Positions 9,430 to 43,527 of a DNA stretch of 64,000 nucleotides are shown here, one piece after another. Source of the DNA: Moniliella sp. 'wahieum'. Lineage: Eukaryota. The notes under the pieces are model-generated. The model did no database searches, was not told where the DNA came from, and saw only the letters and a list, made by a program, of their open reading frames with translations. Positions within the stretch are counted from its first letter, which is position 1. Each line of letters starts with the position of its first letter. Location of the stretch: NCBI GenBank assembly GCA_003971905.1, contig RSEE01000071.1, positions 62,001 to 126,000 of the forward strand. Reading direction: 5' to 3'. The translations under genes were made by a program, and so were the position numbers.

Positions 9430-11074
9430 CTATTTAGGAGGGTGAGAAGGAGAAAGTCTGAATGCAACGGAGCCCTCGGGACCAGGAGGAGGCAAAAAGA
9501 CAGACCCGCCGGAAGTCGCCGTACGCGGATACGCTGTCACAGAAGACCCCGGAACTGGGACCAGGTCCAGTTGGCAGCACCCTGGAGCCCGTAAGATGAA
9601 GTTCTATATCCCCGCGTGGACCGGACCCGGACCCAGGTGCAAATCCCCCGCCCCGACGCGCCCAACTCCACTGGGATGAGCCGCTGCTCCGGTACGACCT
9701 GCCACCGCGAGAGGAAGGGTTTCGAGAAGAAGGATGACCACGTGAACTGCGTCCAGGTACGTCCGGAAGAGACAATTGTGGACGGGTCGCGGCCGGCCGA
9801 CTCGCAATCAACAGCAAGAGTTGGTCATAGTCTGCCTCATGATTGCACGCCACGAAAGAAGGATCTTGGAGACCATTGAGCAAAATAGATCGTAGGATAG
9901 GGTCCGGGACTGGTGCCAATCGCACCTCTATTTTGTAAGCGAGATTGCGGTGCCGTTCAACGTAAGCAGCGCCGTTGAATTCCCAATACGAAAGCAATAA
10001 GTTGGTGTAGGATGTCAACGTGTTCTGCGGGGGATGATTGACCGTAACGTTGAAGCAGGATGTGAAATAATATGGAGGCCATGCCGCTAGTCTGAGAAGA
10101 AGGAATGATGAACTGACGTTGCGGTGAAGATGGGCCATGAGGGGAGCATGGAGTTTGCGGTCCAGGAGGCTGTTGTAATAAGGACCACTTTCGCCATTTT
10201 GAAGCAGCGCATGTGCACCACTCGCTGCGTTGTCGAGGCGGTCCAGAATTAAGTCGGCCCACGCCCAAAAGTCTTGTCCGATATTGTACTTGTCCGCAGT
10301 GTTGACACCGCGTGTAAGTTTTGCCAGAAATGGGAAGGGCTCCTCATTCGCGGGTACAACAGGCACGGATGAGGAAGTGTTGGACAATTGCTTCGCAGAT
10401 ACGGTCTTGTCAAGAACCGCCATGGCAGCCGACACGCCCACTTCGGTACCCCACCTATTCTGGGCCAAGTCAACCAGACACTCCGCAGACATAATGGAGC
10501 TGAGCCTTGTCAACATAGACATGATCTCATCGTCGATTGGTGGAGAAATGGACGCAGTGACAGCAGGAATGTGTTCCACGTCAGGCAAAGATGGGACGGT
10601 TGCCCTTGGGGTTGGGACAGGATCCATAGGCTCTGATGTTTCGGAGGATTGCTTGGAGGAAGAGGAGAAGAACCAAGATGAATCGCAACAGCCCAGCATA
10701 ACATGGTGAAAGACGCCACGCAAGTCGTTGAATTTGTGGGCGACAGGCGTTTGGGAAGACGGATCGCTGGAGACCCCTTTTGTAGGATCCCCGATCATTG
10801 TCACGATCTTCTTTTCAAGAGAAGAAATCGGGTCCGACATAGTGCTCAAATGGTTCTGAAAATCAGATGCATAACCGTCCCCTTTGGTGGCTATCAGGGA
10901 CGTCTGTCCCTCGAGAACATGGTAAAGGGTTTTGTACTGGTCAAGCTGATACTTGGCCAGTTGAGAAGCGCGTTCGAAAGAAATTCGGGTCGTAGGAAAA
11001 GGAGATGGAAGATGGTTGTCGACCCATTCGGGGTTTGGGAGGCCAAGAGGAGTAGGGTGTGGAGTGGCGCTCAT
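9430..11074 (-). CDS. Gag of copia copy B
   Basis: 553-aa ORF downstream of the LTR, colinear with copy A gag (YNSLLDRKLHAPL, YVERHR, LLNGLQD). C-terminus is R/G/S-rich. The homologous frame ends SPSHPPK* at the TAG. Confidence 0.8.
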
Positions 11075-11204
11075 CGTGGATGCGATATGCGCCAAGATGG
11101 TCGGAGGGTTGTTGAAGACGTGGGAGGAAACGTGTATGGGGACAGGGAATGCTTAGGTGATCACCGCGTTGCTCACTGGGTGCGCGAAGAGTAGGAACTC
11201 GATC

Positions 11205-23795: not shown

Positions 23796-24674
23796 GGCTC
23801 CAGGTGGTAGGGGGGTGGCGAGTGCGAGTGCGGTGGGAGGGAGGCTGGGGAAAAGAAAAATGCAGACAGAGCGGAATGCAGGAGGGATGGGTAGTGATTA
23901 TGATTCCGCCTGCATGTGGCGACTCAAATTTCCAACACGAGGCCCCGGCGCGTCTTGCGGTTGGGAGGCAGCTTGCGGCGGGGCAGCCCGCCTCCATTGC
24001 GTCGGTTGGACTGCGGCCGTGGGCACACTCCAGCACCGCCAGCCGCGCGTGGGGAGTGCTGTCCTGCAGAGCACCGCCTGCTGGACACGACAGAAGTGCC
24101 GCCTCGGCAGAAAAACAATTTGCCATCATGACAACGAAGAGGGCGCACCCGTCCGATACATGTCATCCACAGCAGGCCCTCTCCTGGCGAATGCGGAAGG
24201 AGGCATGGGGGCTGGAGGCCATAGCGTGGGGCAGAGTAGACTGCTGCCGTGCCGGTGGTTCCGGCCTTGCTTTCTTGCCTTGCCTTCGTGCTAGCACTTA
24301 GCCCACGCGCGCTGAGCGAGAGGGATGGCTTGCACGCAAGAACGCGCTTCGAGGGAGGGCGGCTCGCCACCGCATCACGTGATGGTTGGAACGCCGCCAC
24401 TCGGGCGGGTGGTCGTGGTGGAGGCGCGTGCTAGGGTTGGCGTCCTGGCTCAGGGACAGTGCAGCGCATTTGCCCGTGCCCGTCGGGGCTCGCCTGGGCT
24501 CAGGCCGCAGTCACGAACCAGGCGTGCTGTTGGGTGGGTCGTTGCCGCCACCACCACCACCACCTCCTCCTCCTCCACCGCCGCCTCCACCGCCGCCACC
24601 ACTACCACCGCCACCACCGCCTTCCCTCCCCCCTCCCCCCGCCTCCGCCTCCACAGCCCTTCTCCCGCGCCACG

Positions 24675-27600
24675 ATGGATACGCTCCTCGACTTTAGTCG
24701 GGAGCTCGACGTCGGCGCCCTCGACCAGGTTGCCGCCGTCATGTACACCGGCACGGGTGCCGACCAGAAACAGGCGCAGGATCTGCTGCGCCAGTTCCAA
24801 GAACACCCCGACGCCTGGCAACGCGTCCCCACCATCATCACCACCAGCTCCCGCAACGAGAGCAAGTACCTTGCCCTCCAGATTCTCGACAAACTCATCA
24901 GCACCCGCTGGAAGACCGTTCCGCCCGAGCAGCAGCAGGGCATTCGCAACTTTGTCGTCCAGACCACCATTGAGCAGTCGTCGGACGAAGCCAACCTCCG
25001 CCACCAGCGCGTCTACATCAACAAGCTCAACTCCACCCTGGTTGAGGTACGTTGCGGCTTTTGTGGCCTCTGTACCCCCCCCCACTTACTAATGCTCCTT
25101 TCCCCTTGTCCCCACCCACAGATCCTGAAGCAGGAGTGGCCCCACGGCTGGCCCAACTTTATTCCTGAAATCGTCGCTTCCAGCAAGACGTCACTGCCCA
25201 TCTGCGAGAACAACATGCACATTCTGCGTCTTCTCTCGGAGGAGATCTTTGACTTTAGCGCAGGGTCGATGACCTCGGCCAAGGCGCAGGCTCTGAAGGA
25301 GCAGATGGTGTCGGAATTCTCCGAAGTCTTCCGTCTCTGCTCGGAGGTGCTGGAGAAGGCACAGAAGCCTTCGTTGATCAAGGCCACGCTTGACACCACT
25401 CTGCGTTTCATCACCTGGGTCCCGCTCGGCTTCATTTTTGAGACGACATTCATGGACACGCTTCTGAGCCGCGTACGTTTGTCTCTGTGTGACGCTTGTA
25501 TCGTATATTAACCTGTATGCAGTTCCTTGAGCACCCCGACTACCGCAACGTGACGCTCAAGTGTCTATCGGAAATTACGCTGGTCAGCCTGCCGGACTAT
25601 GATCAGCAGCTGCTGATTCTCTTCCAGCTGTCCATGTCCGCAATCAACCGGATGCTGCCGCCGTCCGTCGATATTGCCAAGGGCTATGAAGACGGCTCGG
25701 ACGAGGACCAGGAACTGATCAACAACCTTGCCATTTTCATCTCCACTTTCCTTACCCATCACCTCAAGCTTATCGAGACGGAAGACCACCGCGCCTTGCT
25801 CGAGAATGCGCACATGTACCTCATCAAATTGCCATGGTGCCCGAGAAGGAGATCTTTAAGATCTGTCTCGAGTACTTTAGCAAGTTGACCCAAGAGTTTT
25901 ACGAGGAGATGCAAAAGATGCCAGTGTCCAACCCAATCTTGGGCCTCAACTTGGGCGGTGCATTTGGTGGGAACCAGTCCGAGGCGGCGGCGCTGGTGGC
26001 GATGCGCAAGACGATGTATGCCGACATTCTGTCCAACCTGCGGATGGTGATGATTGAGCGCATGGTGAAGCCAGAGGAGTGCTGATCGTGGAGAACGACG
26101 AGGGTGAGATTGTTCGTGAAGTATTGAAGGAGTCGGACGCGATGGTCATGTATAAGAGCATGCGCAGCGTGCTTGTGTACCTCACGCACCTCGACCCCGT
26201 CGACACGGAAAATATCATGACCGACAAACTCTCGCGCCAGGTCGATGGTTCCGAGTGGGGGTGGAACCCGCTTAATACGCTTTGTTGGGCGATCGGATCG
26301 ATCTCGGGAGCCATGTCGGAAGACTCGGAACGTCGATTCCTCGTGACAGTGATCCGGGATTTGCTGACGCTGTGCGAGGCCAAGAAGGGCAAGGACAACA
26401 AGGCGGTGGTTGCGTCAAACATCATGTACATTGTTGGGCAATACCCACGTTTCTTGCGGGCGCATTGGAAGTTCCTCAAGACGGTGGTCAACAAGAACTT
26501 TGAGTTTATGCACGAGACCCATGAGGGTGTGCAAGATATGGCGTGTGACGTTCCTCAAGATTGCGCAGAAATGCCGGAGGCACTTTATCATCCAGCAGGC
26601 CGGCGAGGCCGAGCCGTTTGTTGATGAGATCCTCCATTCGCTCCACTTTACCACCAATGACTTGAGCCCCTCCCAGGTGCACACCTTTTATGAGGCGGTC
26701 GGCTTTATGATCTCAGCACAGACGGACCAAGATCAGCAAGAGCGGTTGATTGCCAAGTTGATGGAGCTACCCAATTCGGCGTGGAATAACGTGTTGGAAC
26801 AAGCACGAGCCAACGTCGATGTCTTCAGCTCCCCGGAGAACATCAAAGTTTTGGCCAATGTGCTCAAGACCAATGTGGCCGCCTGCACCTCCATTGGGGC
26901 GGCTTTCCTTCCGCAATTAGGCCAGATCTACCTCGACATGCTCGAACTGTACAAGAGCGTTAGCACCATCATCTCCACCAAGGTCGAGGCCGAAGGGTTG
27001 ATTGCGACCAAGACACCCATCGTACGTGGCTTGCGGACATCAAGAAGGAGATCCTGCGCTTGGTGGAGACCTATGTAGCGCGCGCGACCGACTTGCAGTA
27101 CATTTCCACCTCGATGATCCCCACCTTACTTGAAGCGGTTCTGGGCGACTATGCCAACAATGTGCCCGACGCACGGGATGCCGAGGTGCTCAACGTGATG
27201 GCTGCCATCACCAACAAGCTGGGTGCCCTTCTCCTGCCCCAGATCCAACCGACGATCGATGCAGTGTTTGAGCCTACGCTGGCTATGATCTCGCTCGACT
27301 TTAGCGAGTTCCCCGAGCACCGCGTTGGATTTCTTCCGTTTGCTGCGTGCCATCACAGAGAACTGCTTTGAGGCACTCCTCACCCTCCCGCCCGAGAAGT
27401 TCCGACTGACGATGGACAGCATCATCTGGGCCATCAAGCACACGATGCGCGATATTGCCGACCAAGGCTTGGTCATCATGCTCGAGCTGTGGACAAGATG
27501 CGGTTGGCAGATGCCTCGGTAGCCCAAGCGTTTTACCAGACGTACTTGCTTGCCGTCTTGCGCGACGTGTTTGCCGTACTGACCGACGCGGACCACAAAT

Positions 27601-28121: not shown

Positions 28122-30532
28122 TCAAGCGACCAAGGGCAGGATGTAAATAGAGCAAGTAGGATAGGACAAGTAGGCGTTTGGAGTTTGGAATCGGCTACGG
28201 TGTGGGGGCAGGGCAGGGGCAGGGGCAGGGTGCGCGGACGAGGGCGGAGAAGACGGGGCGGTGCGCGCCAAGGCCGCTTGGTCTTGCGCGTGGGCGGCAC
28301 GTCGACGAGCAGCGTACCAGTCGGGGAGGAAGCCCGGCGCATCGAGTGTGCCTTGCTCAATCGCATCCAGCTGCTTCATCAGGTCGTAGTTGGTCTCGGC
28401 CGGCACTTGGCTGTCCTGCCGATAGGCGGGGCGCCTGAATAAAGTCGCGGATAAACGTCGCGGCCGTCTTGAGCTTGCCGCTGGCGCGATCCGAAACTAG
28501 TGCGAGGTACCGCTCCAACTCACACCGCGTCTCCACGTCCATCCGTAGACGGTCGAGGTACGAGCGGACGAGCGGCACCAAGCCGGCAAACTCGCCCTGC
28601 GCCGCCGTGGGTGTCAGCACGACTTGAAGGAAAGTGAAAAGGAAGGGTTAGGGGGGGGGGGGGGGGACGGGACGTACGGTGCCATTGATCAATTCGTCAA
28701 GGGTGAACTCAGCGTCTTCATCTTGCGGCGCAGGCTCTGGGTCAGGCGAGATGGAGCGCGAGTCTGGGCAAGAAGCAAAAGCGGAGCGAGCAAACGAAGG
28801 CGGGTCCGAGGGCAACTCCTTCTCCAAGCCCTGGGCGCGCGCATGCGAGTTGAGCAGCGCGTCTTTACGGAACCCAGGCTTGCTGTTGGAACTAGCACTA
28901 GCCGTCGTGGCTGGTGTGGGCGGCGTACTGCATCGTTCCTTCTCGGCCGTCAAAGCTTCGCTCAACGCGTCCGGGTTGGGACCGGTAGAGGTAGAGGCAG
29001 TGGCGGGACGAGCGGCGCGGTGGCGCGAAATGTCTTTGCGGAAAAAGAAGCGTTGGGTGTGAATCGCATCGCGTTGCTGGGCGCGCTGCATGTTGATGTC
29101 CACCTTGGACAGCGGCATGTAAAAGTTCAGTCCAAAACTCAGGATGGCACGGGTGAGAAGGACGACAAAGATGCTAAACGCAGCATTCTCAAAGTCGGTG
29201 ATTTGCACTTCCATCGACCGTACCTCCACCCGCCATCCAATCTTGCCACCCAGCGGCGGCGGCTTGAAACGCAGCGTCTGCCAGTTGGTGGACTGGATGT
29301 TCTCAAAGTGATCCAAGCTCTGTCGGTCGTCTAGGTCAACCATCTCAGAGAAGATGACGAGCGGGTCACGAATAAAGAGGTGTGCGAGGTGACGTGCCAA
29401 ACGATCGTCCAGGCCATGCTCCTTGAGCCGCGCCAGCACACCTTCGTCCACAGGGAGAGGGTTGTCATTGTAGTAGGCCTTGTTGGCGGCATCGGTAGAC
29501 AGGTAGGAATCGACAGAATCGTACCGGCTCTTGTTCATGTGCATCCGGCCTTTTCCCTCGGTCATGGCTTGAGCCCTTTCTCCTCGTCTGTCCGGTCGTC
29601 CACAGCAGCAGAGATGATGTTCCAACGCGCATCCACGTCGGCGAGCCAGCCACGGTACACAGGGCTGGCCGCCGACCAAGGAGAAGGGGAGCGACCGGGA
29701 TCAGCTGGTCATAGATCGTGCGCGCCTCCTTGACGGAGCATGCTTGAAACGTGGCCTGGAGACAGCAGCAGCCCATGCCAAAGCCCATGGCGTCCATGTA
29801 AATGTGATCGGGCAAAGCAGAGCCCTCAAACGCTTCGTTGTCTCCGGGGAAGAGAGAGCGATGGGGGATGGAAGGGTCGTGGAACGGCCGCGGGGTGTTC
29901 ACGTCGTGGAAGACAGGCACATTGATGGCCACCTTTTTGCCGCGCCGCTTGCGGATATTGGCCGTCAAGGTGGGGAAGCGGACGTGCTGGTTGATGACCT
30001 GGTCGGGCAGGAACAGACTCTGACTCGCAGGGCCGTCAGGGACATGGGCGGGCTCGATAAAGGGTTTGCCGGGACGCGGAGCGCCGAGCATCGGGTAGCT
30101 CGTCACAGTCAGCGGCACCTCGTTGGGCCGGAGATGGGCACGGACAATGAGCCGGCGCAGACGCATGTCGGGTTCGACCTGGCGCAGCGCATCGGGGCTC
30201 GCTTCAAACGGCTGCCCCGGTGTGGTTTCCAGCATGAAGCGGCCGTACTCGGGGTGGAAGAGAGGGTAGGAGGCGCTGCGTCCCTCGGCCGCGGCCTCGA
30301 GCTCTTGCAGGATCTCGCCCTGGCGGAGACTGAGCGGGGCATTGCGCGCCGCATCGTCAAAGGCGACCACCACGTACTCGAGCTCATCGCCCCAGAGCAT
30401 GTGGTCGCCCTGGCGGTCCTTGACGGCGTCCCAGAGATGGAGGAACTGGGTGATGCCATGCGTGCGCACATGGTCGGCGAGCTTCTGGGCGTCGGGCCAG
30501 TCGTACGGCGTGCCGAGGGAGAGGAGACCCAT
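28122..30532 (-). CDS. GSH1: Glutamate-cysteine ligase catalytic subunit (3' end uncertain)
   Basis: [59 protein letters not shown] and GWRVE. Intron at about 28540-28678. Confidence 0.97.
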
Positions 30533-30872
30533 GGGGAGGACGGGGCGGAGGCGAGTGCGGGCGGGAGGAGCGGTGGGAGGGAGCGGTGGAGAGGGGACGG
30601 GTGCGGGTGCTGTGGTGATAAAAAAAGAAACCCCGAAGAAAGACGGGCCGAACCGATCAGCGCTCAGGACGTTAAATCCGGCAGTAGCACGCTATCGACG
30701 ATCATCCACCGCGGGCGTCTGCGACGCGCACAGCCGGCCGGCGCCCGTCGCCGCCATCGCCCACTAACCCATCCGCACCGCCGATCGACGCATGGAGCCA
30801 TGTCGCCCTCCTGCCTGCGTCTGGGCGGCACGCCGGGGATTGGCGCGGCTGGTCTGTAGCGTCACTCATGCG

Positions 30873-36554: not shown

Positions 36555-37034
36555 CTCGCTCTTGTGCCATGGTCCCCCCTTGCACGTGCCCCCCCTGCCT
36601 CGTCTACTCGTGGAGTGCATGCCTGGTACCAGGGCGACCGACCATTTGGGTGTCCCCCGGGCTGGGCCACTCCGGCGTCGAGCGCCCTCTGCTTCCAGCG
36701 AACCTAGGTGCGACGCTCCGCAGCAGTATGCGTGGGCTTGACAATCAATGGCGTTGACGAGAGTGTGTGTTGGGTGGTGGCTATGGGATGGATGGATGGA
36801 TGGATGGATGGATGCTATGGTTGGTACCAGTACTTTGTGGCCAGTGGCTAATTGCTGTGGGGAGTGGCTAGTGGGGTTGGAACATTGAACGTTCAAGTTG
36901 ATTTGGAACACATGAGAGACCGACTGACGTAAGCCTGCTTGGGGGGTTAAATTTTACGGTCGGGAACGGACTTGTGCTGTGGGCCGGCTGGGCTGAGATG
37001 TATTTGATGTGAGAAGAGCCGAACCGCCCTCTGG

Positions 37035-37384
37035 TGCTAGAGTGCGACTTGAGAGCACTCGCGATCCTATGGATCAGCTGCAAAGCAGCCTTCAGACAAG
37101 GCGTGAAGGCAAAGTGGTGAGCCACAAGTCTTCAAGCAACGTCTCATTGTGAGGAGCAACAGGTCAAGAAAGGAAGCAGAGGCGTACCTTCAGACAAGGC
37201 GTGAAGGCAAATGGTGAGCCACAAGTCTTCAAGCAACGTCTGAAGGGAAGAGAAAGGAGAGAGAGAAGGAGATGGAGCGAGCAGGGCGTGCGCGGCCTGC
37301 GAGCGGAACGCTTCCGCTCGGCTAGGCGAGCGTCACCGATCCATTGAGGGCCGTGCAGGAGAACCCTAGCAGTACCCTCTAACA
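37035..37384 (-). repeat. 3' LTR, with an internal 56-bp duplication
   Basis: Direct repeat of 41247-41598. Internal copies at 37089-37144 and 37187-37241. Confidence 0.95.
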
Positions 37385-37393
37385 GCCCCCCTC
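37385..37393 (-). promoter_or_regulatory. Polypurine tract
   Basis: GAGGGGGGC immediately before the 3' LTR on the minus strand. Confidence 0.75.
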
Positions 37394-37529
37394 GGTGAGC
37401 TCGCCAGACCACAGGTGGTGGTGGTCCTCGGCCAAGGGCCAAGGCATGGATGAAAGAAGAAAGGATGTCTCCAACGCCTCTGGTCAAAAAGTGAAAGGAA
37501 AAACATAATTGGCAAGCGATGTTGCCAAG

Positions 37530-40500
37530 TCAAGGAAGAGAAACAGTATATTCAACGCATGGAGGTAAGGAGGAAGCGTAGAAAGTCACAGAGGTCAATT
37601 CAACTTGGAAGTATAAACAACATGTTCCAAGTCGAACAGGATGTTCAACGGATGAGGGAGGAAGCGTAAGAATCATAGAGGTCGATTCAACTGGAGGTAG
37701 AAACAACATGTTCCAAGCCGAAAGAGGATGTTGAACGTGTGCAGGTAAGGAAGCTGTGAAAGTCATAGAGATCGATGCAACTTGGAGATATAGACAACAT
37801 ATGCCAAGTCGAACCGAAGCCAAAGTCGAACAGTAAAAACGTAGAGTTGGAGGTCGAGTAGAACCATAGAAGGCAATTCAACTTGAAAAGAAACCAACAA
37901 GTCAAATTTGGCACAGCCATGAAAAGGAGAAAAGGACCAAATTCAGGACAGAAAAAGGATGACGACTGGTCCAAACCGTCACGAGGACCAGCGTCAACGA
38001 TGGTTCGAAAGTACCTTGTAGGTGATCAGTACACTTCGCAAGCAGCACCGCTGGCAAAGGAGCGACCAAAGTCTTCGGGCCCGGGTGGGATGAAAGTGCA
38101 ACGGCTGCCCATGTAGCGTACACTAGAGACAGTGCCTCCGTCTTGAGACAGCCAAAGAAACTCCCATTTGGGCCAGAAAGGAAACCATAGCCGCCCATGC
38201 AGCCCAATAGTAACAGCACCGCCAATCTTGGAACGGTCAAGGTACCCCGCGCCCGGTCAGGTAGGAAACGGCCACAACCATTAGTGTAGCCTAAACCGTC
38301 AACAGCACCACTGCTCTTGAGACGGTCAAAGTACCCCCGCGCCCGGGTCAGACAGGAAACGGCTACAACCATTAGCGTAACCTAAACCGTCAACCGCACC
38401 ACTGCTCTGAGACGGTCAAAGTACCCCCCCCCGGGTCAAGTAGGAAACTACCACATCGAGTAGTGTAACCGAAACTGTCAACAGCAGCACTTGTCTTGGG
38501 ACGATCAAGGACCCCCGCCCAGGTCAGATAGGGAAGTGCCACCGCTGCCCGTGTAGCCCAAAACATAAACGGTGTCCCCCATCATGGATCGGTCAAAGTA
38601 CCTGTCCGAGTCATGTAAGAAACTGCCACAGCCGCCCGTGTAGCCCCAATCGTAAACGGTGCCTGTGGTCTTGGAACGATCAAAATACCACCCCCGGGTC
38701 AGATAGGAAACCGTCAGAACCGCCCATCATGTTGGATGCAATGGGAGAGAGAGACGTTAAAGCAAAGCACACAAGAGGGCCAACGAGTCCGCACATACCT
38801 CCCGAGCTAACAAGTAAGAAGGGCAGCTAGGGTGGCTTGCGTCGGTGGGCCCCGGCCTTGGGACCTCAGGTCAGTATCGATATTCTCTCCCGACAGACAA
38901 TGTGTGCCTGAGGATCGGTACCGTGCCCATACGCAATTTGGAACAGGCAGGCCTGCCAACACATGGTGAGTATCGCTGAAAAGGGTGGGTGGGAGGGAAC
39001 AGTAAGGCAAGGTGGTCCGGCGCGCGTAAATGCATGTGCGGAAGGACGGGGGCAGCCCCCCTTTTTCCCATCCCGTCGATGGCCGCAAGCTCTGACAAGC
39101 GGCAATCGCCTTCCCTGCGTATGGTGCTAGGCGACCGTGCAAGCTTGTCCGCAAGCTCGGCGACCGTTAATCTCCATGTCCAGCGCCAGGTCGACACCGC
39201 CACACGCCATCGGCCCCCTTGATCGGACGCTCGGCCAATAGCAGCGCGCGACATCGGTCCCCCTTGGTCAGGCACCAGGCCGACACGTCCACGCCGCCAT
39301 CGGCCCCCCTTTGTCGGGCGCCTGGCCAAAGCACCACACGCTATCGGCCCCCCTTCGTCAGGCGCTGGCCAATGGCACCACACGCGGTCGGCCCCCCTTT
39401 GTCGGCGCCTGGCCAATAGCACCACACGCTATCGCCCCCCTTCGTCAGGCGCTTGGCCAATGGCACCACACACGCGGTCGGCCCCCTTTGTCGGGCGCCT
39501 GGCCAATAGTGCACACGCTATCGGCCCCCTTGGTCGGGTGCCTGATGGACGTCAATGGGAACCGGGCCACCAAGCGCCTGGTCGGACGCCATGCCATCCA
39601 CCGGCCCCCCTTTGTCAGACGCAGGCAACCACGACCCCCCTTTGATAGGTGCCAAGCCAACCACGGCCCCCCTTTGTCAGACGCTAGGCCAACCACCGGC
39701 CCCCCTTCATCGGGTACCGGGCCAGCCATCGTTTCCTCTTCATCGGGTGAAGAGGCCCAAGCGCCATCGGCCCCCCTTGGCCAGGCGCCTGGACTTTAAC
39801 AGGTACCAGGCCACCGAGCGCCTGATCAGGTGCCATGCCATCCACCGTCCCCACTGTATCAGGCGCCAGGCCAGCCACCGGCCCCCCTTGATCGGGTGCC
39901 AAGTCAGCCATTGTTTCCCCTTCATCGGTGCAAAGGCACCGAGCGTAATCAGCCCCCCTTACGAGGCGCCGGGACTGCAACGGGTACCGGGCCACCAAGC
40001 GCCTGATCGGTTGTCTGATCCTGAGCCACGATAGCAACTGACATGGACCTGGGGGAATGCACCTCCCGTGACGCATAGTCACCACCCGCTGGGGGTAAGC
40101 CCGGGCCGACAGATGCCATCGCAGCCACAGGATCCGGCTTGGCGATAGCAGCTGGCGTGGACCTGGGGGAATGCACCTCCCGTGACACATAGTCACCACC
40201 CGCTGGGGGTAAGCCCGGGCCGACAGATGCCATCGCAGCCACAGGATCCAGCTTGGCGATAGCAGCTGGCGTGGACCTGGGGGAATGCACCTCCCGTGAC
40301 ACATAGTCACCACCCGCTGGGGGTAAGTCCGGGCCGACAGATGCCATTGCTGCAACAGGGTCATACCCAACAGCAGCTAACTCAGCCCCGGACTTGGGAC
40401 TAGCGGAATGCATCGTCAGTAAATCAGGACCAACGCGTGGCATCTTGCCCAGAGGCTCATGGGCGACAGCAACTGGCTCACACGCGGGCGAAGCAAGGTG

Positions 40501-41242
40501 TTCCGCTGGCTCGCTGGCACCACGAGCCGGGAAAGGCTCGTCAACGAGTGGTGCTGCAACCAGAGGTTTACCCTCTCCACCAGTGCAATCACGAGAGCAA
40601 TCCACATCCTTGGGGCCAGACACGACCACACCTTGGGGCTCTCTGATACAGTCCGCTGGGTCGAGGAGCATGTCACGCATGGCACGACGCTTCAGATCGA
40701 CACGGTGTTTGGAAGCCTGATTGTCCTCGTACAGTTTCCAAGCATTACGCACTGCCTTGATATGGCGAAAGATTGCCTTCTGCAAGTCCTCAAAAGTGGA
40801 GAAGCGATGAGACTTGGTATAAAAGACGTAGGCAACATAGAAGTCGGTCGGGTGTGAGCAAGAAGTTTTCGCCACCATGGCCCTTATTGTAGTCGGTAAT
40901 GATATCAGCCACAATAGAGTCCTTGTCTGCCACTGCAGAACCAGGGAGCGGGGAGGCGATGCCACTCATCGGCATACCCCAGTGGCGAATGGTAGGAATG
41001 ACTTCCAGGATGAACTTGGCAGCGACGTCCTCGTCAACGTCCGAAAGAACGACGCTCAGTTGAGCCCAAGCATAAGTCGTGCCCTTGATGCGAAAAGCCG
41101 GCCACTTCGCTGTCGTGCCAGGGGCTATCTCGACTTGGGAGTTGGGGTCAAACTCGCCACGACGAACATACGCTTCCACAATGTCGCGAGGCGAGGAAAC
41201 CGGGTGCGCAGAATGCGCAGAGGCAGAAGATAAGGGCGACAT
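37530..41242 (-). CDS. Putative long repeat-domain protein of the pol-less LTR element (frameshifted; possibly more than one ORF)
   Basis: Starts at the ATG inside the PBS (MSPLSS..). ORF pieces 40790-41242, 39949-40965, 39684-40370, 37902-38372 and 37530-37823 chain across single-base shifts. Confidence 0.55.
37548..37815 (-). repeat. ~88-90-bp tandem array x3 (consensus VRLGTCCLYFQVESTSMTF..SLP..VEHP)
   Basis: Recurring acaacat(g/a)t..caag(t/c)cgaa, read on the plus strand. Confidence 0.85.
38050..38727 (-). repeat. ~90-bp tandem array x7-8 (consensus GYTGGCGSFLSDPGGGYFDRSKTSGAVDGL)
   Basis: Recurring cg(g/a)tcaaa(g/a)ta, ggaaac and gtgta(g/a)cc at about 90-bp spacing. Confidence 0.9.
39200..40015 (-). 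repeat. 33-45-bp degenerate tandem array (APD[QEK]GGP-type units)
   Basis: Many copies of cggccccc(c)tt..tc(a/g)ggcgc on the plus strand. Confidence 0.85.
40022..40365 (-). repeat. 114-bp tandem array x3 (DPVAAMASVGPGLPPAGGDYVSREVHSPRSTPAAIAKL)
   Basis: Near-identical in-frame units inside ORF 39949-40965. Confidence 0.95.
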
Positions 41243-41246
41243 AACC
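41234..41246 (-). promoter_or_regulatory. Putative primer-binding site (half-tRNAiMet type)
   Basis: GGTTATGTCGCCC directly abuts the 5' LTR and resembles the Ty5/copia PBS GGTTATGAGCCC. Confidence 0.6.
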
Positions 41247-41598
41247 TGCTAGAGTGCGACTTGAGAGCACTCGCGATCCTATGGATCAGCTGCAAAGCAG
41301 CCTTCAGACAAGGCGTGAAGGCAAAGTGGTGAGCCACAAGTCTTCAAGCAACGTCTCATTGTGAGGAGCAACAGGTCAAGAAAGGAAGCAGAGGCGTACC
41401 TTCAGACAAGGCGTGAAGGCAAAGTGGTGAGCCACAAGTCTTCAAGCAACGTCTGAAGGGAAGGAGAAAGGAGAGAGAGAAGGGAGATGGAGCGAGCAGG
41501 GCGTGCGCGGCTGCGAGCGGAACGCTTCCGCTCGGCTAGGCGAGCGTCACCGATCCATTGAGGGCCGTGCAGGAGAACCCTAGCAGTACCCTCTAACA
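41247..41598 (-). repeat. 5' LTR of the pol-less element
   Basis: Direct repeat of 37035-37384. The differences seen are single-base indels. Confidence 0.95.
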
Positions 41599-41677
41599 TC
41601 TGGGTCTCCGAGCGCACCGGCTCAGCCAGTCCATCCATCCTTCCTTCCTTTGCCCTTTGGCTCCCTTGGCACCCACC

Positions 41678-43527
41678 ATGGCCGAGCCCAGTACACAGCT
41701 CAGTGCGCCGCCCAGCGCACAACCCAGTGCGCAGCACATTGCGCCCAAGTTGAAGGGGCGCAAAACGCCGCTCTACCTCGAGTTCTTCCCGCCCAAAACC
41801 GCCACCGGCAAACAACATCTCTTCTCCCGCATCGCCCGTCTCGCCCATCCCGACCAAGCGCACAACGACCCCCACATCCACACCCAGCCTCCCGCTTGGA
41901 TCGACGTCACCTGGGGCGCCGGCGGCTCCACCGACAAGGACAGCCTTGAGATTGCTGCCCGCATCCAACGCGGCGACCTGACGGAGGAGCAGGACCGATT
42001 TTCCTCCTCCTCGGACGCGCCTGCGCACCCGCAACCGGTGGACGTGTTGCTGCACTTGACCTGTACCAACGTGACGCTCGCCGCGCTGCGTGCGACGCTG
42101 CAGGCGGCGCGGCAGGCGGGGATCCGCAACTTGCTCGCCCTTCGGGGTGATCCCCGCGCGGGCAAGAGTACTGGGTCGCGGCCGACGACCGGTTCCAACA
42201 TGCCGTCGACTTGGTCAAATTTGTTCGTGCGGAGCATGGCGATTGGTTCTGCATTGGGGTCGCGGCCTACCCCGAAGGACATCCGGACGACGAAGAGGGC
42301 GACAAAGTCGGTCGCGACTTGCAGCACCTCAAGGAAAAGCAAGCGGCCGGCGCCGACTTTGTGGTGACGCAATTGTTTTACGATGCGGAGGTATTTTTGC
42401 GCTGGGAGCGACGTGCGCGCGCCGAGGGCATCACCATTCCAATTGTGCCTGCGTTCATGCCGATTGTCAACTACAATGCTTTTCGGCGGATCAGCACGCT
42501 GTGCAAGATCAATGTGCCGAGCGAGGTGCAACGGGCGGTGGAGGAGGAACGAAAAGCACGACGATGTGCGGGTGCGCGAGTACGGGACGCAGTTGGCCCA
42601 AGACATGATGCAGCGGATCTGGGACGATGCAGACTGCTACGTTGGCTGTTTCCACATCTGCACCCTCAACCTTGAGCGCAGCACCGAGTGGATCGTAGCC
42701 CAGTCGCCTTGGTGGACCAGCTCTTCTTCGGTGGCCAAGACGGCGGCGCTGGCACCGGGCGAGTGGGACGAGTTCCCCAATGGTAGATGGGGCGACATTC
42801 GCTCCCCGGCCTATGGCGAGATTGACGGTTACGGCGCTAACATCAAACTGCCACCACAGGAAGCTCGTGCGACCTGGGGCGCGCCTAGTAGCGATGCTGA
42901 GATTAGCCAGATTTTCGTCCGCTACCTCGAGGGATCCTTGTCCATCATCCCCTGGTGGGACGGGCCGTTGATGGAGGAAACGGAAACGATTCGAGATGCG
43001 CTGCTGCAACTCAACTCGGCCCAGGGCCAAGGCTGGTGGACAGTGGGCTCCCAGCCGGCGGTGGATGGCGCGCCATCGTCAGATCGTATCTACGGCTTTG
43101 GCCCGCCGGGCGGGTACGTGTACCAAAAGGCCTATGTCGAGCTGTTTGTGTCGGACGCCGACAAGCAACGCCTGACACGCGCCATTGCCAGCTCGCCCTT
43201 GGCTGAGCAAGTGTCGTACTTTGCCTGGCGGCCAGGAAGCGGCAACGAAGTAGAAACGAATGTCGCTGCGGGAGGGGCCAACTGCGTGACGTGGGCCGTA
43301 TGGCCAGGAACCGAGGTGGTACAAGCAACCTTGATTGAGCCTGCCTCGTTCCGCGCCTGGGCCGAAGAGGCATTTGCCATCTGGACCCAGTGGGCCGCCC
43401 TCTTCCCCCCGCACTCGCCTGCCCACACTTTCCTCACCGCCACGTCGCAGCAGCGCTGGCTCTGACGCTGGTACACCACGACTATAAGCGTCCCGATGCG
43501 CTGTGGAAGTGGCTCGCCCACGTCTAA
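41678..43527 (+). CDS. MET12: Methylenetetrahydrofolate reductase, Met12-like paralog
   Basis: LEFFPPKT, DVTWGAGGST, LHLTCTN, NLLALRGDP, FCIGVAAYPEGH, TQLFYD, WDEFPNGRWGD..SPAYGEIDGYG and GYVYQKAYVE. MTHFR call is firm; the paralog assignment is less certain. Confidence 0.88.

What the first reader, a model, noticed from the sequence alone, without database searches (positions are those of the whole stretch)
37035..41598. Young pol-less LTR retroelement that seems to encode a four-module tandem-repeat protein
Seen: all cis signals (LTRs differing only by 1-bp indels, 5-bp TSD, PBS-like site, PPT) but no PR, IN, RT or recognisable Gag motif. The interior is a reading frame starting at the ATG in the PBS. 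It has a unique N-terminal region followed by four unrelated repeat arrays: 38 aa x3, 11-15 aa APDxGGP units, 30 aa G/Y/F/D-rich x7-8, and 30 aa CC-containing x3. Known: LARD and TRIM elements are non-coding and TR-GAG elements carry only gag. Inference: a recently mobilised parasite of a copia helper carrying a novel repeat-protein cargo. Its LTRs are unrelated to the copia family in this window, so the helper lies elsewhere.
Basis: partly seen in the sequence, partly recalled or inferred. Interest (0 to 1): 0.85.

Follow-up and report, generated by a model that had tools for sequence, protein, structure and literature searches.

The report
Copia parasite with repeat-expanded Gag fusion
A young jumping gene in a fungus has lost its copying enzymes and apparently borrows them from a complete sister element, yet it keeps one long reading frame made of the front of the sister's coat gene plus tandem repeats that may be worn-down scraps of the lost enzyme gene.

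Summary
The element is real and young. It belongs to a non-autonomous LTR family: 9 full copies examined, 7 with exact 5-bp TSDs, plus solo LTRs. I found the likely helper, a complete Ty1/copia family sharing the PBS, PPT region and LTR ends. The 'unique' N-terminal 197 codons are the helper Gag's N-terminal extension, and patches of it have been swapped with the helper. The frameshifts behave like assembly errors: native ORFs of sister copies tile one frame of about 1,080 codons, from 41242 to a stop at 38028-38026. Only three arrays are coding; the fourth (91/89-nt units) lies after the stop. The frame avoids stops (P=0.007), but its codons show no excess of silent change, whereas the helper's Gag core does. 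There are no outside homologues. The start of array 3 aligns in frame with the helper's RT C-terminal region, and the cargo is roughly collinear with pol (moderate evidence). Best reading: a remodelled gag-pol kept open, not a captured conserved protein. Expression is untested. The scan noted this family before on a sister copy (e1-7649112), without helper or origin in what was shown.

The parts
41599..41603 (.). 5-bp target-site duplication, 5' side
41247..41598 (-). 5' LTR, 352 bp, TG..CA, with an internal direct repeat at 97-98 nt spacing; about 71% identical to the helper LTR
41234..41246 (-). PBS-like site, identical in the helper; holds the ATG (41242) that also starts helper Gag. Primer tRNA not identified
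   Evidence: tRNA search failed
40651..41242 (-). Codons 1-197: N-terminal extension of the helper's Gag (upstream of the Gag core and zinc knuckle); mosaic, 3' half 97-100% identical to the helper, 5' half 77-96%
40360..40650 (-). Linker 1, in frame; holds a 20/22-nt match to the helper IN-RT linker (weak)
40029..40359 (-). Array 1, 114-nt (38 aa) units, 3 here, 5 in the C24 copy; coding
39195..40028 (-). Array 2, 33- and 45-nt (11 and 15 aa) APDxGGP units with higher-order repeats; coding; weak likeness to the helper IN-RT linker
38734..39194 (-). Linker 2, in frame; its 3' end and the first array-3 unit (about 38800-38690) align in frame with the helper RT C-terminal region
38029..38733 (-). 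Array 3, six 90-nt (30 aa) G/Y/F/D-rich units plus a degenerate end; coding
38026..38028 (-). Stop codon that ends the long frame; same place in sister copies and in older relics (TAA in the C74 relic, TGA in the C39 relic)
37569..37813 (-). Array 4, three units spaced 91 and 89 nt in the cleaner copies, after the stop: non-coding 3' repeat
37385..37420 (-). PPT and about 35 nt upstream, shared with the helper
37035..37384 (-). 3' LTR, 350 bp
37030..37034 (.). 5-bp target-site duplication, 3' side

Best explanation
A non-autonomous derivative of a Ty1/copia family, copied in trans by the complete helper family in the same genome. SHOWN: it carries the helper's PBS, PPT region, LTR ends and the first 197 gag codons, lacks capsid core, zinc knuckle, PR, IN and RT, inserted recently many times, and has exchanged blocks of the 5' gag region with the helper. 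INFERRED: its RNA is packaged with helper RNA in helper particles (block exchange is what template switching in co-packaged RNAs gives), the 5' gag stretch being kept partly because packaging signals lie there, as in Ty1. SHOWN: one frame of about 1,080 codons is kept open while its residues drift about neutrally. INFERRED (about 0.6): the cargo is the old pol region of this lineage, with the catalytic cores deleted and scraps (IN-RT linker, RT C-terminal region) tandemly amplified during reverse transcription. INFERRED (about 0.5): selection acts on being translated end to end (RNA stability, or co-translational delivery of the RNA to particle assembly sites) more than on a folded product; the product would be a Gag N-terminal domain with a long low-complexity tail.
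For: Helper: LTR-gag(zf-CCHC)-PR-GAG-pre-integrase-rve-RVT_2-LTR, 6.3-6.6 kb, six places. Shared 5' 948 nt at 82% and PPT region. Mosaic: window/C36/C15/C62 match the helper 97-100% over nt 300-525 but 77-92% over nt 75-300; C24/C49/C18 64-94% throughout; C145 93-100% up to nt 525. Youth: 7 of 9 full copies with exact TSD, 6 of 9 with 0 LTR substitutions; 16 of 20 LTR-only loci examined have an exact TSD and none has a PBS or PPT beside it. Errors: window against C36 copy 47 indels (44 of 1-2 nt, 37 of these in base runs) but 18 substitutions; helper copies show 25-96 indels per pair; host MTHFR is split between frames; contigs of an independent run have a one-base gap at two of the window's breaks, agreeing with sister copies (low depth). 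Frame: native 797-codon ORF from the ATG; the junction to the last part is in frame in 7 of 9 copies; in-ORF length differences between subfamilies are 3, 9, 45, 90, 135, 228, 249 nt, after the stop 1, 2, 5 nt; 0 stops among repeat units against 4.6 expected, P=0.007; 0 stops in 107 shared variant codons. Neutral residues: shared cargo variants 21 silent of 50, 16.3 expected, P=0.10; control, helper Gag 281-580 against the C4 copy 23 silent of 39, 9.8 expected, P<0.001. Pol origin: best DNA match of cargo to helper scores 53, null maximum 41 of 60; top hit of the profile in 153 kb, E=0.006; hhalign E=0.0013, 42 columns, 36% identity, other pairings without that region E>=0.16; sense strand and pol frame; collinear chain 391/385/362 against null 328+-11. 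Ty1 packaging signals lie in the 5' 380-580 nt (PMC4974528, passages); Ty1 RNA reaches assembly sites while being translated (PMC3945221, abstract).
Against: The pol origin rests mainly on one 100-nt match: 1 of 16 segments reached E=0.006, and one other segment hit host DNA at E=0.03. With blind 50-aa tiles the chain is 648-679 against null 612+-19 (maximum 664 of 200), other copia loci 584-648, so only 2 of 5 helper copies beat the null maximum, and an off-frame reading of the cargo reached 667 once. A profile of 22 RT C-terminal pieces from this genome did not find the cargo; hhalign probability is only 19%. Stop avoidance between copies alone is not significant (0 against 1.3 expected, P=0.25). 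The RNA-stability idea is weakened by the helper itself, whose gag stop leaves about 4 kb downstream. Direction of exchange between helper and element is not shown. Raw pN/pS of 0.5-0.7 in arrays 2 and 3 may hide mild constraint.
Confidence: 0.68

Rival explanations
1. The fusion protein is functional and fast-evolving: the Gag N-terminal domain docks it on helper Gag or assembly sites, and the G/Y/F-rich repeats act as a low-complexity module that draws the element's own RNA into helper particles or competes with the helper. Loose compositional constraint would look nearly neutral.
For: Frame kept open to a conserved stop 25% divergence deep; repeated uptake of helper N-terminal blocks; N-terminal alleles have a deficit of silent change in one pair (6 against 13.3, P=0.013, 1 of 4 pairs); array 3 is 22% Gly, 15% Phe+Tyr; linker 2 has 6 silent of 7, P=0.014 uncorrected.
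Against: No overall excess of silent change in the cargo; unit numbers vary freely among young copies; no homologue, no confident fold; no expression data.
Confidence: 0.2
2. The interior is non-coding filler of a LARD-like element; the repeats arise by template slippage and the open frame is an accident of GC-rich sequence.
For: Residues evolve about neutrally; tandem arrays are common inside LTR elements (PMC11963269, passages); array 2 holds PPT-like G runs.
Against: All four unit lengths inside the frame are multiples of 3 while those after the stop are not; larger indels inside are multiples of 3; P=0.007 for no stop in the units; the frame is the Gag frame from the Gag ATG.
Confidence: 0.07
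3. Bs1-like transduction: the cargo is a captured host or foreign gene fused to 5' gag.
For: Architecture 5' gag plus in-frame cargo between LTRs; LTR elements capture mRNAs by template switching (PMC5131818, PMC13317346, passages).
Against: Protein searches of the own genome with three cargo parts found only copies and relics of this element (33 matches from 34 of 34 candidates, 32 from 38 of 38, 29 from 33 of 33); no outside homologue; the best match is the helper's pol.
Confidence: 0.05

Closest known systems
Non-autonomous Ty1/copia derivatives moved by an autonomous partner (BARE-2/BARE-1 as named in PMC4350172; mini-Ty1 donor-helper system, PMC4974528; sugar-beet families with gag or degraded pol remnants, PMC13570524; passages read)
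   Same: LTRs, PBS, PPT and 5' internal region kept, enzymes lost, recombination with partner; this is how it works.
   Different: Keeps one open frame of about 1,080 codons with three in-frame tandem arrays; the passages read describe fragments or loss of domains, not such a frame.
TR-GAG elements of plants (PMC4350172, passages read)
   Same: Pol-less LTR element with a single ORF that begins as gag.
   Different: TR-GAG is under 4 kb and encodes the Gag capsid; this is 4.0-4.7 kb and keeps only the N-terminal extension, without Gag core or zinc knuckle.
Maize Bs1 (described in PMC13317346 and PMC5131818, passages read; primary papers not read); gag-fusion defective retroviruses (recalled)
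   Same: LTR element carrying a chimeric ORF that is amplified by further retrotransposition.
   Different: Bs1 carries pieces of three host genes; here no host donor was found and the best match of the cargo is the helper's own pol.
LTR elements with additional ORFs and internal tandem arrays (Retand, PMC11963269 passages; PMC7264820 first third read)
   Same: Family-specific tandem arrays before the 3' LTR (array 4 is of this kind); ORFs of unknown origin.
   Different: Those ORFs lie beside gag-pol, often antisense; here the ORF replaces gag-pol in the Gag frame.

Membership tests
Non-autonomous Ty1/copia derivative | TG..CA LTRs, TSD, PBS, PPT | tested here: met
Non-autonomous Ty1/copia derivative | No intact PR, IN, RT | tested here: met
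   No Pfam hit; RT C-terminal profile negative
Non-autonomous Ty1/copia derivative | Autonomous partner with PR-IN-RT order sharing the cis signals | tested here: met
Non-autonomous Ty1/copia derivative | Mobilisation in trans by that partner | not testable with these tools
   Indirect only: mosaic 5' gag blocks
Non-autonomous Ty1/copia derivative | PBS complementary to a host tRNA | tested here: inconclusive
   A recalled tRNA-iMet anticodon-arm motif gave 9 matches (reversed control 5); none of the 6 loci returned held a tRNA gene
TR-GAG | Single ORF encoding the Gag capsid | tested here: not met
   Shared region ends at residue 197; the Gag core shared with another family lies at 327-596 and the zinc knuckle at 557-572. 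That 327-520 is the capsid is inference; the fold model was unusable
TR-GAG | Length under 4 kb | tested here: not met
   4,564 bp; 8 of 9 copies over 4 kb
LARD (definition recalled) | Long interior without coding capacity | tested here: not met
Bs1-type transducing element | Cargo derived from host genes | tested here: not met
Bs1-type transducing element | Chimeric ORF transcribed and translated | not testable with these tools
   No RNA run available for the test

The most novel reading that the evidence does not exclude
A retrotransposon parasite has built a new protein out of its own dead pol gene: the helper Gag's fast-evolving N-terminal domain, renewed by recombination to keep matching the current helper, fused to amplified linker and RT scraps that now act as a low-complexity tether pulling the parasite RNA into helper particles. 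That would be a protein-level hijacking device and a visible case of gene birth from polymerase debris in a helper-parasite arms race.
Probability: 0.2. Interest if true: 0.8.

Novelty: new variant of a known kind. Interest (0 to 1): 0.48.

Why it matters
Non-autonomous LTR elements are normally read as non-coding or gag-only. This family keeps a kilocodon frame open while letting its residues drift, which makes a clean test case for whether translation itself (not the protein) is what a parasitic retroelement RNA needs, and for how tandem-repeat proteins can arise from eroded pol. Helper and parasite are both young and in one genome, so the question is testable by sequencing. If the protein proves to be only a frame-keeper, it is a modest addition to TE classification.

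Tried and rejected
Outside homologues: none for helper Gag, the N-terminal alignment among longer proteins (weak test), residues 198-797, array 3 in 1.84 billion representatives, the Atlas, PDB sequences, Pfam. AlphaFold models had mean pLDDT 33; the Foldseek search on one was meaningless, so 'capsid fold?' was not settled by structure. An eyeballed likeness between this N-terminal domain and that of the C54 family was rejected (BLAST E=2.9, hhalign 0.5%). No likeness of helper Gag to the gag-like ORF at window 9437-11152. Read-through of the stop at 38028: the frame behind it is open for 112 codons only in the window copy and closes early in the other 7 read. Array 2 as a multi-PPT array: considered, units also use GGT GGC for the same Gly-Gly, not pursued. 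General RT profile against cargo: negative. Host tRNA for the PBS not found. Public runs: no RNA holder listed; parts of the element without contig cover in run X1 say nothing. The bacterial promoter scan is irrelevant to this host. Literature searches listed no paper whose title or abstract start describes such an element; the library lacks most subscription journals and Repbase was not searched. No supplements were read.
Full report
1. Observation. The element spans 41598-37035 on the minus strand. Its LTRs (352 and 350 bp, TG..CA) differ by four 1-bp gaps and no substitution, and CCAGA flanks both ends. A PBS-like site follows the 5' LTR and holds an ATG at 41242; a PPT precedes the 3' LTR. 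Four tandem arrays are present. Pfam finds no retroelement domain in 9 element ORFs of the window. The host looks fungal from its flanking genes (my inference; earlier notes say smut-related, not tested); the genome is 69.5 Mb in 223 contigs.

2. A young family. A DNA search scored 40 of 429 candidates and gave 65 matches, so counts are lower bounds. Nine full copies of 3,959-4,700 bp were examined: 7 have exact 5-bp TSDs, 6 have no LTR substitution, the others 1, 4 and 7. Of 21 LTR-only places listed I fetched 20: 16 have an exact TSD, none has a PBS or PPT beside it, so they are solo LTRs. Truncated relics at 72-83% identity lie on C39, C74, C78 and C135.

3. The helper. Loci sharing only the first 948 nt (82%) are complete copia elements of 6.3-6.6 kb: a 644-aa Gag with zf-CCHC, then Pol_BBD/protease, GAG-pre-integrase, rve, SH3 and RVT_2, at six places. 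They share the PBS, the Gag start, about 35 nt before the PPT and the LTR ends; the LTRs are about 71% alike. The first 197 codons of the element are the first 197 of helper Gag. The part of Gag shared with another family (C54) is 327-596 (E=2e-10), so the element keeps an N-terminal extension and drops the Gag core and zinc knuckle. Identity to the helper changes in blocks: the window, C36, C15 and C62 copies are 97-100% identical over nt 300-525 and 77-92% over nt 75-300; C24, C49 and C18 copies are 64-94% throughout; C145 is 93-100% up to nt 525. Such blocks are what template switching between co-packaged RNAs would leave (inference; template switching among non-autonomous families is reported in PMC13570524, passages).

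4. The frame. The window copy differs from the C36 copy by 18 substitutions but 47 indels, 44 of 1-2 nt and 37 of those in base runs. Helper copies show the same excess (25-96 indels per pair), and the host MTHFR gene next door is split between frames. Contigs of an independent run have one-base gaps at 40850 and 38339, agreeing with sister copies, at depth under 3. The C36 copy has a native ORF of 797 codons from the ATG and a second native ORF to the end; the junction between them is in frame in 7 of 9 copies. The frame is about 1,080 codons and ends at 38028-38026; the stop stands at the same motif in all 9 copies and in the C39 and C74 relics, once as TAA. Unit lengths inside the frame are 114, 33, 45 and 90 nt; array 4, behind the stop, has 91 and 89. 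Length differences between subfamilies inside the frame are 3, 9, 45, 90, 135, 228 and 249 nt (some off by one, as errors would give), behind it 1, 2 and 5 nt. Among repeat units there is no stop where 4.6 are expected (P=0.007); among 107 shared variant codons none where 1.3 are expected (P=0.25); 2 private stops occur in the two oldest copies (array 1 was left out of the between-copy test because its register is ambiguous).

5. Selection. Silent changes are not in excess: shared cargo variants 21 of 50 against 16.3 expected (P=0.10), arrays on a spanning tree P=0.19-0.80, cargo against relics P=0.19-0.86. The N-terminal alleles have pN/pS near 1 in the diverged pairs, one of four pairs with a deficit of silent change (P=0.013). 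The control works: helper Gag 281-580 against the C4 copy has 23 silent of 39 changed codons against 9.8 expected. So the frame is protected, the residues hardly are.

6. Origin of the cargo. No outside homologue was found, and own-genome protein searches with three cargo parts returned only this family. A translated comparison with the helper gave a lead. The end of linker 2 and the start of array 3 align with the helper's RT C-terminal region on the sense strand and in the pol frame: DNA score 53 against a null maximum of 41 in 60, top hit at E=0.006 in 153 kb, hhalign E=0.0013 over 42 columns at 36% identity but probability 19%. The array-3 unit core (RFLSDPGGGYFD) faces the helper's RFMANPGPDHFN. 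Array 2 and linker 2 show weaker likeness to the IN-RT linker (hhalign E=0.16). A collinear chain of ten chosen segments scores 391, 385, 362 on three helper copies against 328+-11 (maximum 362) for nulls and 317-344 for helper antisense and five other copia loci. With 19 blind tiles the gap shrinks: 648-679 against 612+-19 (maximum 664 of 200), other loci 584-648. Only 1 of 16 DNA segments reached E<0.01, and a profile of 22 RT pieces missed the cargo. These tests largely re-measure one match. I put the pol origin at about 0.6.

7. Mechanism. Shown: cis signals and 5' gag from the helper, recent insertion, block exchange, open frame, near-neutral residues. Inferred: helper Gag and Pol package and copy the RNA; the 5' 600 nt carry packaging signals as in Ty1 (5' 380-580 nt; PMC4974528, passages); the frame is kept because a translated RNA is stable or is delivered to assembly sites, as Ty1 RNA is (PMC3945221, abstract). 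Against the stability idea, the helper's own gag stop leaves about 4 kb downstream. The rival, a loosely constrained tether protein, stays at about 0.2.

8. Comparison and verdict. It works like a non-autonomous copia derivative and meets those criteria. It fails TR-GAG (no capsid core, over 4 kb; PMC4350172, passages), LARD (it is coding; definition recalled) and Bs1-type capture (no host donor; PMC13317346 and PMC5131818, passages). Searches listed nothing describing this layout, within a library that lacks most subscription journals. Verdict: new variant of a known kind, interest 0.48.

Noticed in passing
window 41598-41678: The element sits head to head with the host MTHFR gene, 80 bp from its likely ATG (41678), so the 5' LTR lies in the gene's promoter region; an effect on expression is untested.
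   Followed up: partly
L031:2786-2788 and five other helper copies: Helper gag ends in TAG with pol continuing in the same frame in L031; the TAG is present in all 6 loci read. Earlier notes report this Tca2-like layout for copia families of this genome.
   Followed up: partly
L031:854-1450: The helper Gag's N-terminal 197 residues and the linker to residue 280 evolve without silent excess, unlike the Gag core; one allele pair has a deficit of silent change. No homologue found.
   Followed up: partly
L032/L033 (G000:C14 about 943600-956450): Two helper copies lie in tandem and share a middle LTR.
   Followed up: no
L097:757-6049 (G000:C4): A second derivative of the helper: gag only, diverged N-terminal allele, with a duplicated 1.4-kb unrelated insertion just after the N-terminal domain.
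   Followed up: partly
L138:4843-8589 (G000:C54): A 3.7-kb element with 500-bp LTRs, a Gag related to the helper's core and a protease-like start, apparently without IN or RT: a TR-GAG-like candidate (not scanned with Pfam).
   Followed up: no
L098 and L100 (G000:C74, C78): The two oldest relics lie in a duplicated segment of about 10 kb, 91-95% identical.
   Followed up: no
window 41301-41454 and sister copies: LTRs come in about 352-bp and about 250-bp forms by gain or loss of an internal 98-nt repeat, in both the element and the helper; two copies have one LTR of each form.
   Followed up: partly
window 41597-43465, 24435-27078, 28648-30691: Host genes are split between frames: MTHFR (Pfam), and by eye an exportin-like and a glutamate-cysteine-ligase-like gene (names recalled), showing the assembly's indel load.
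   Followed up: partly
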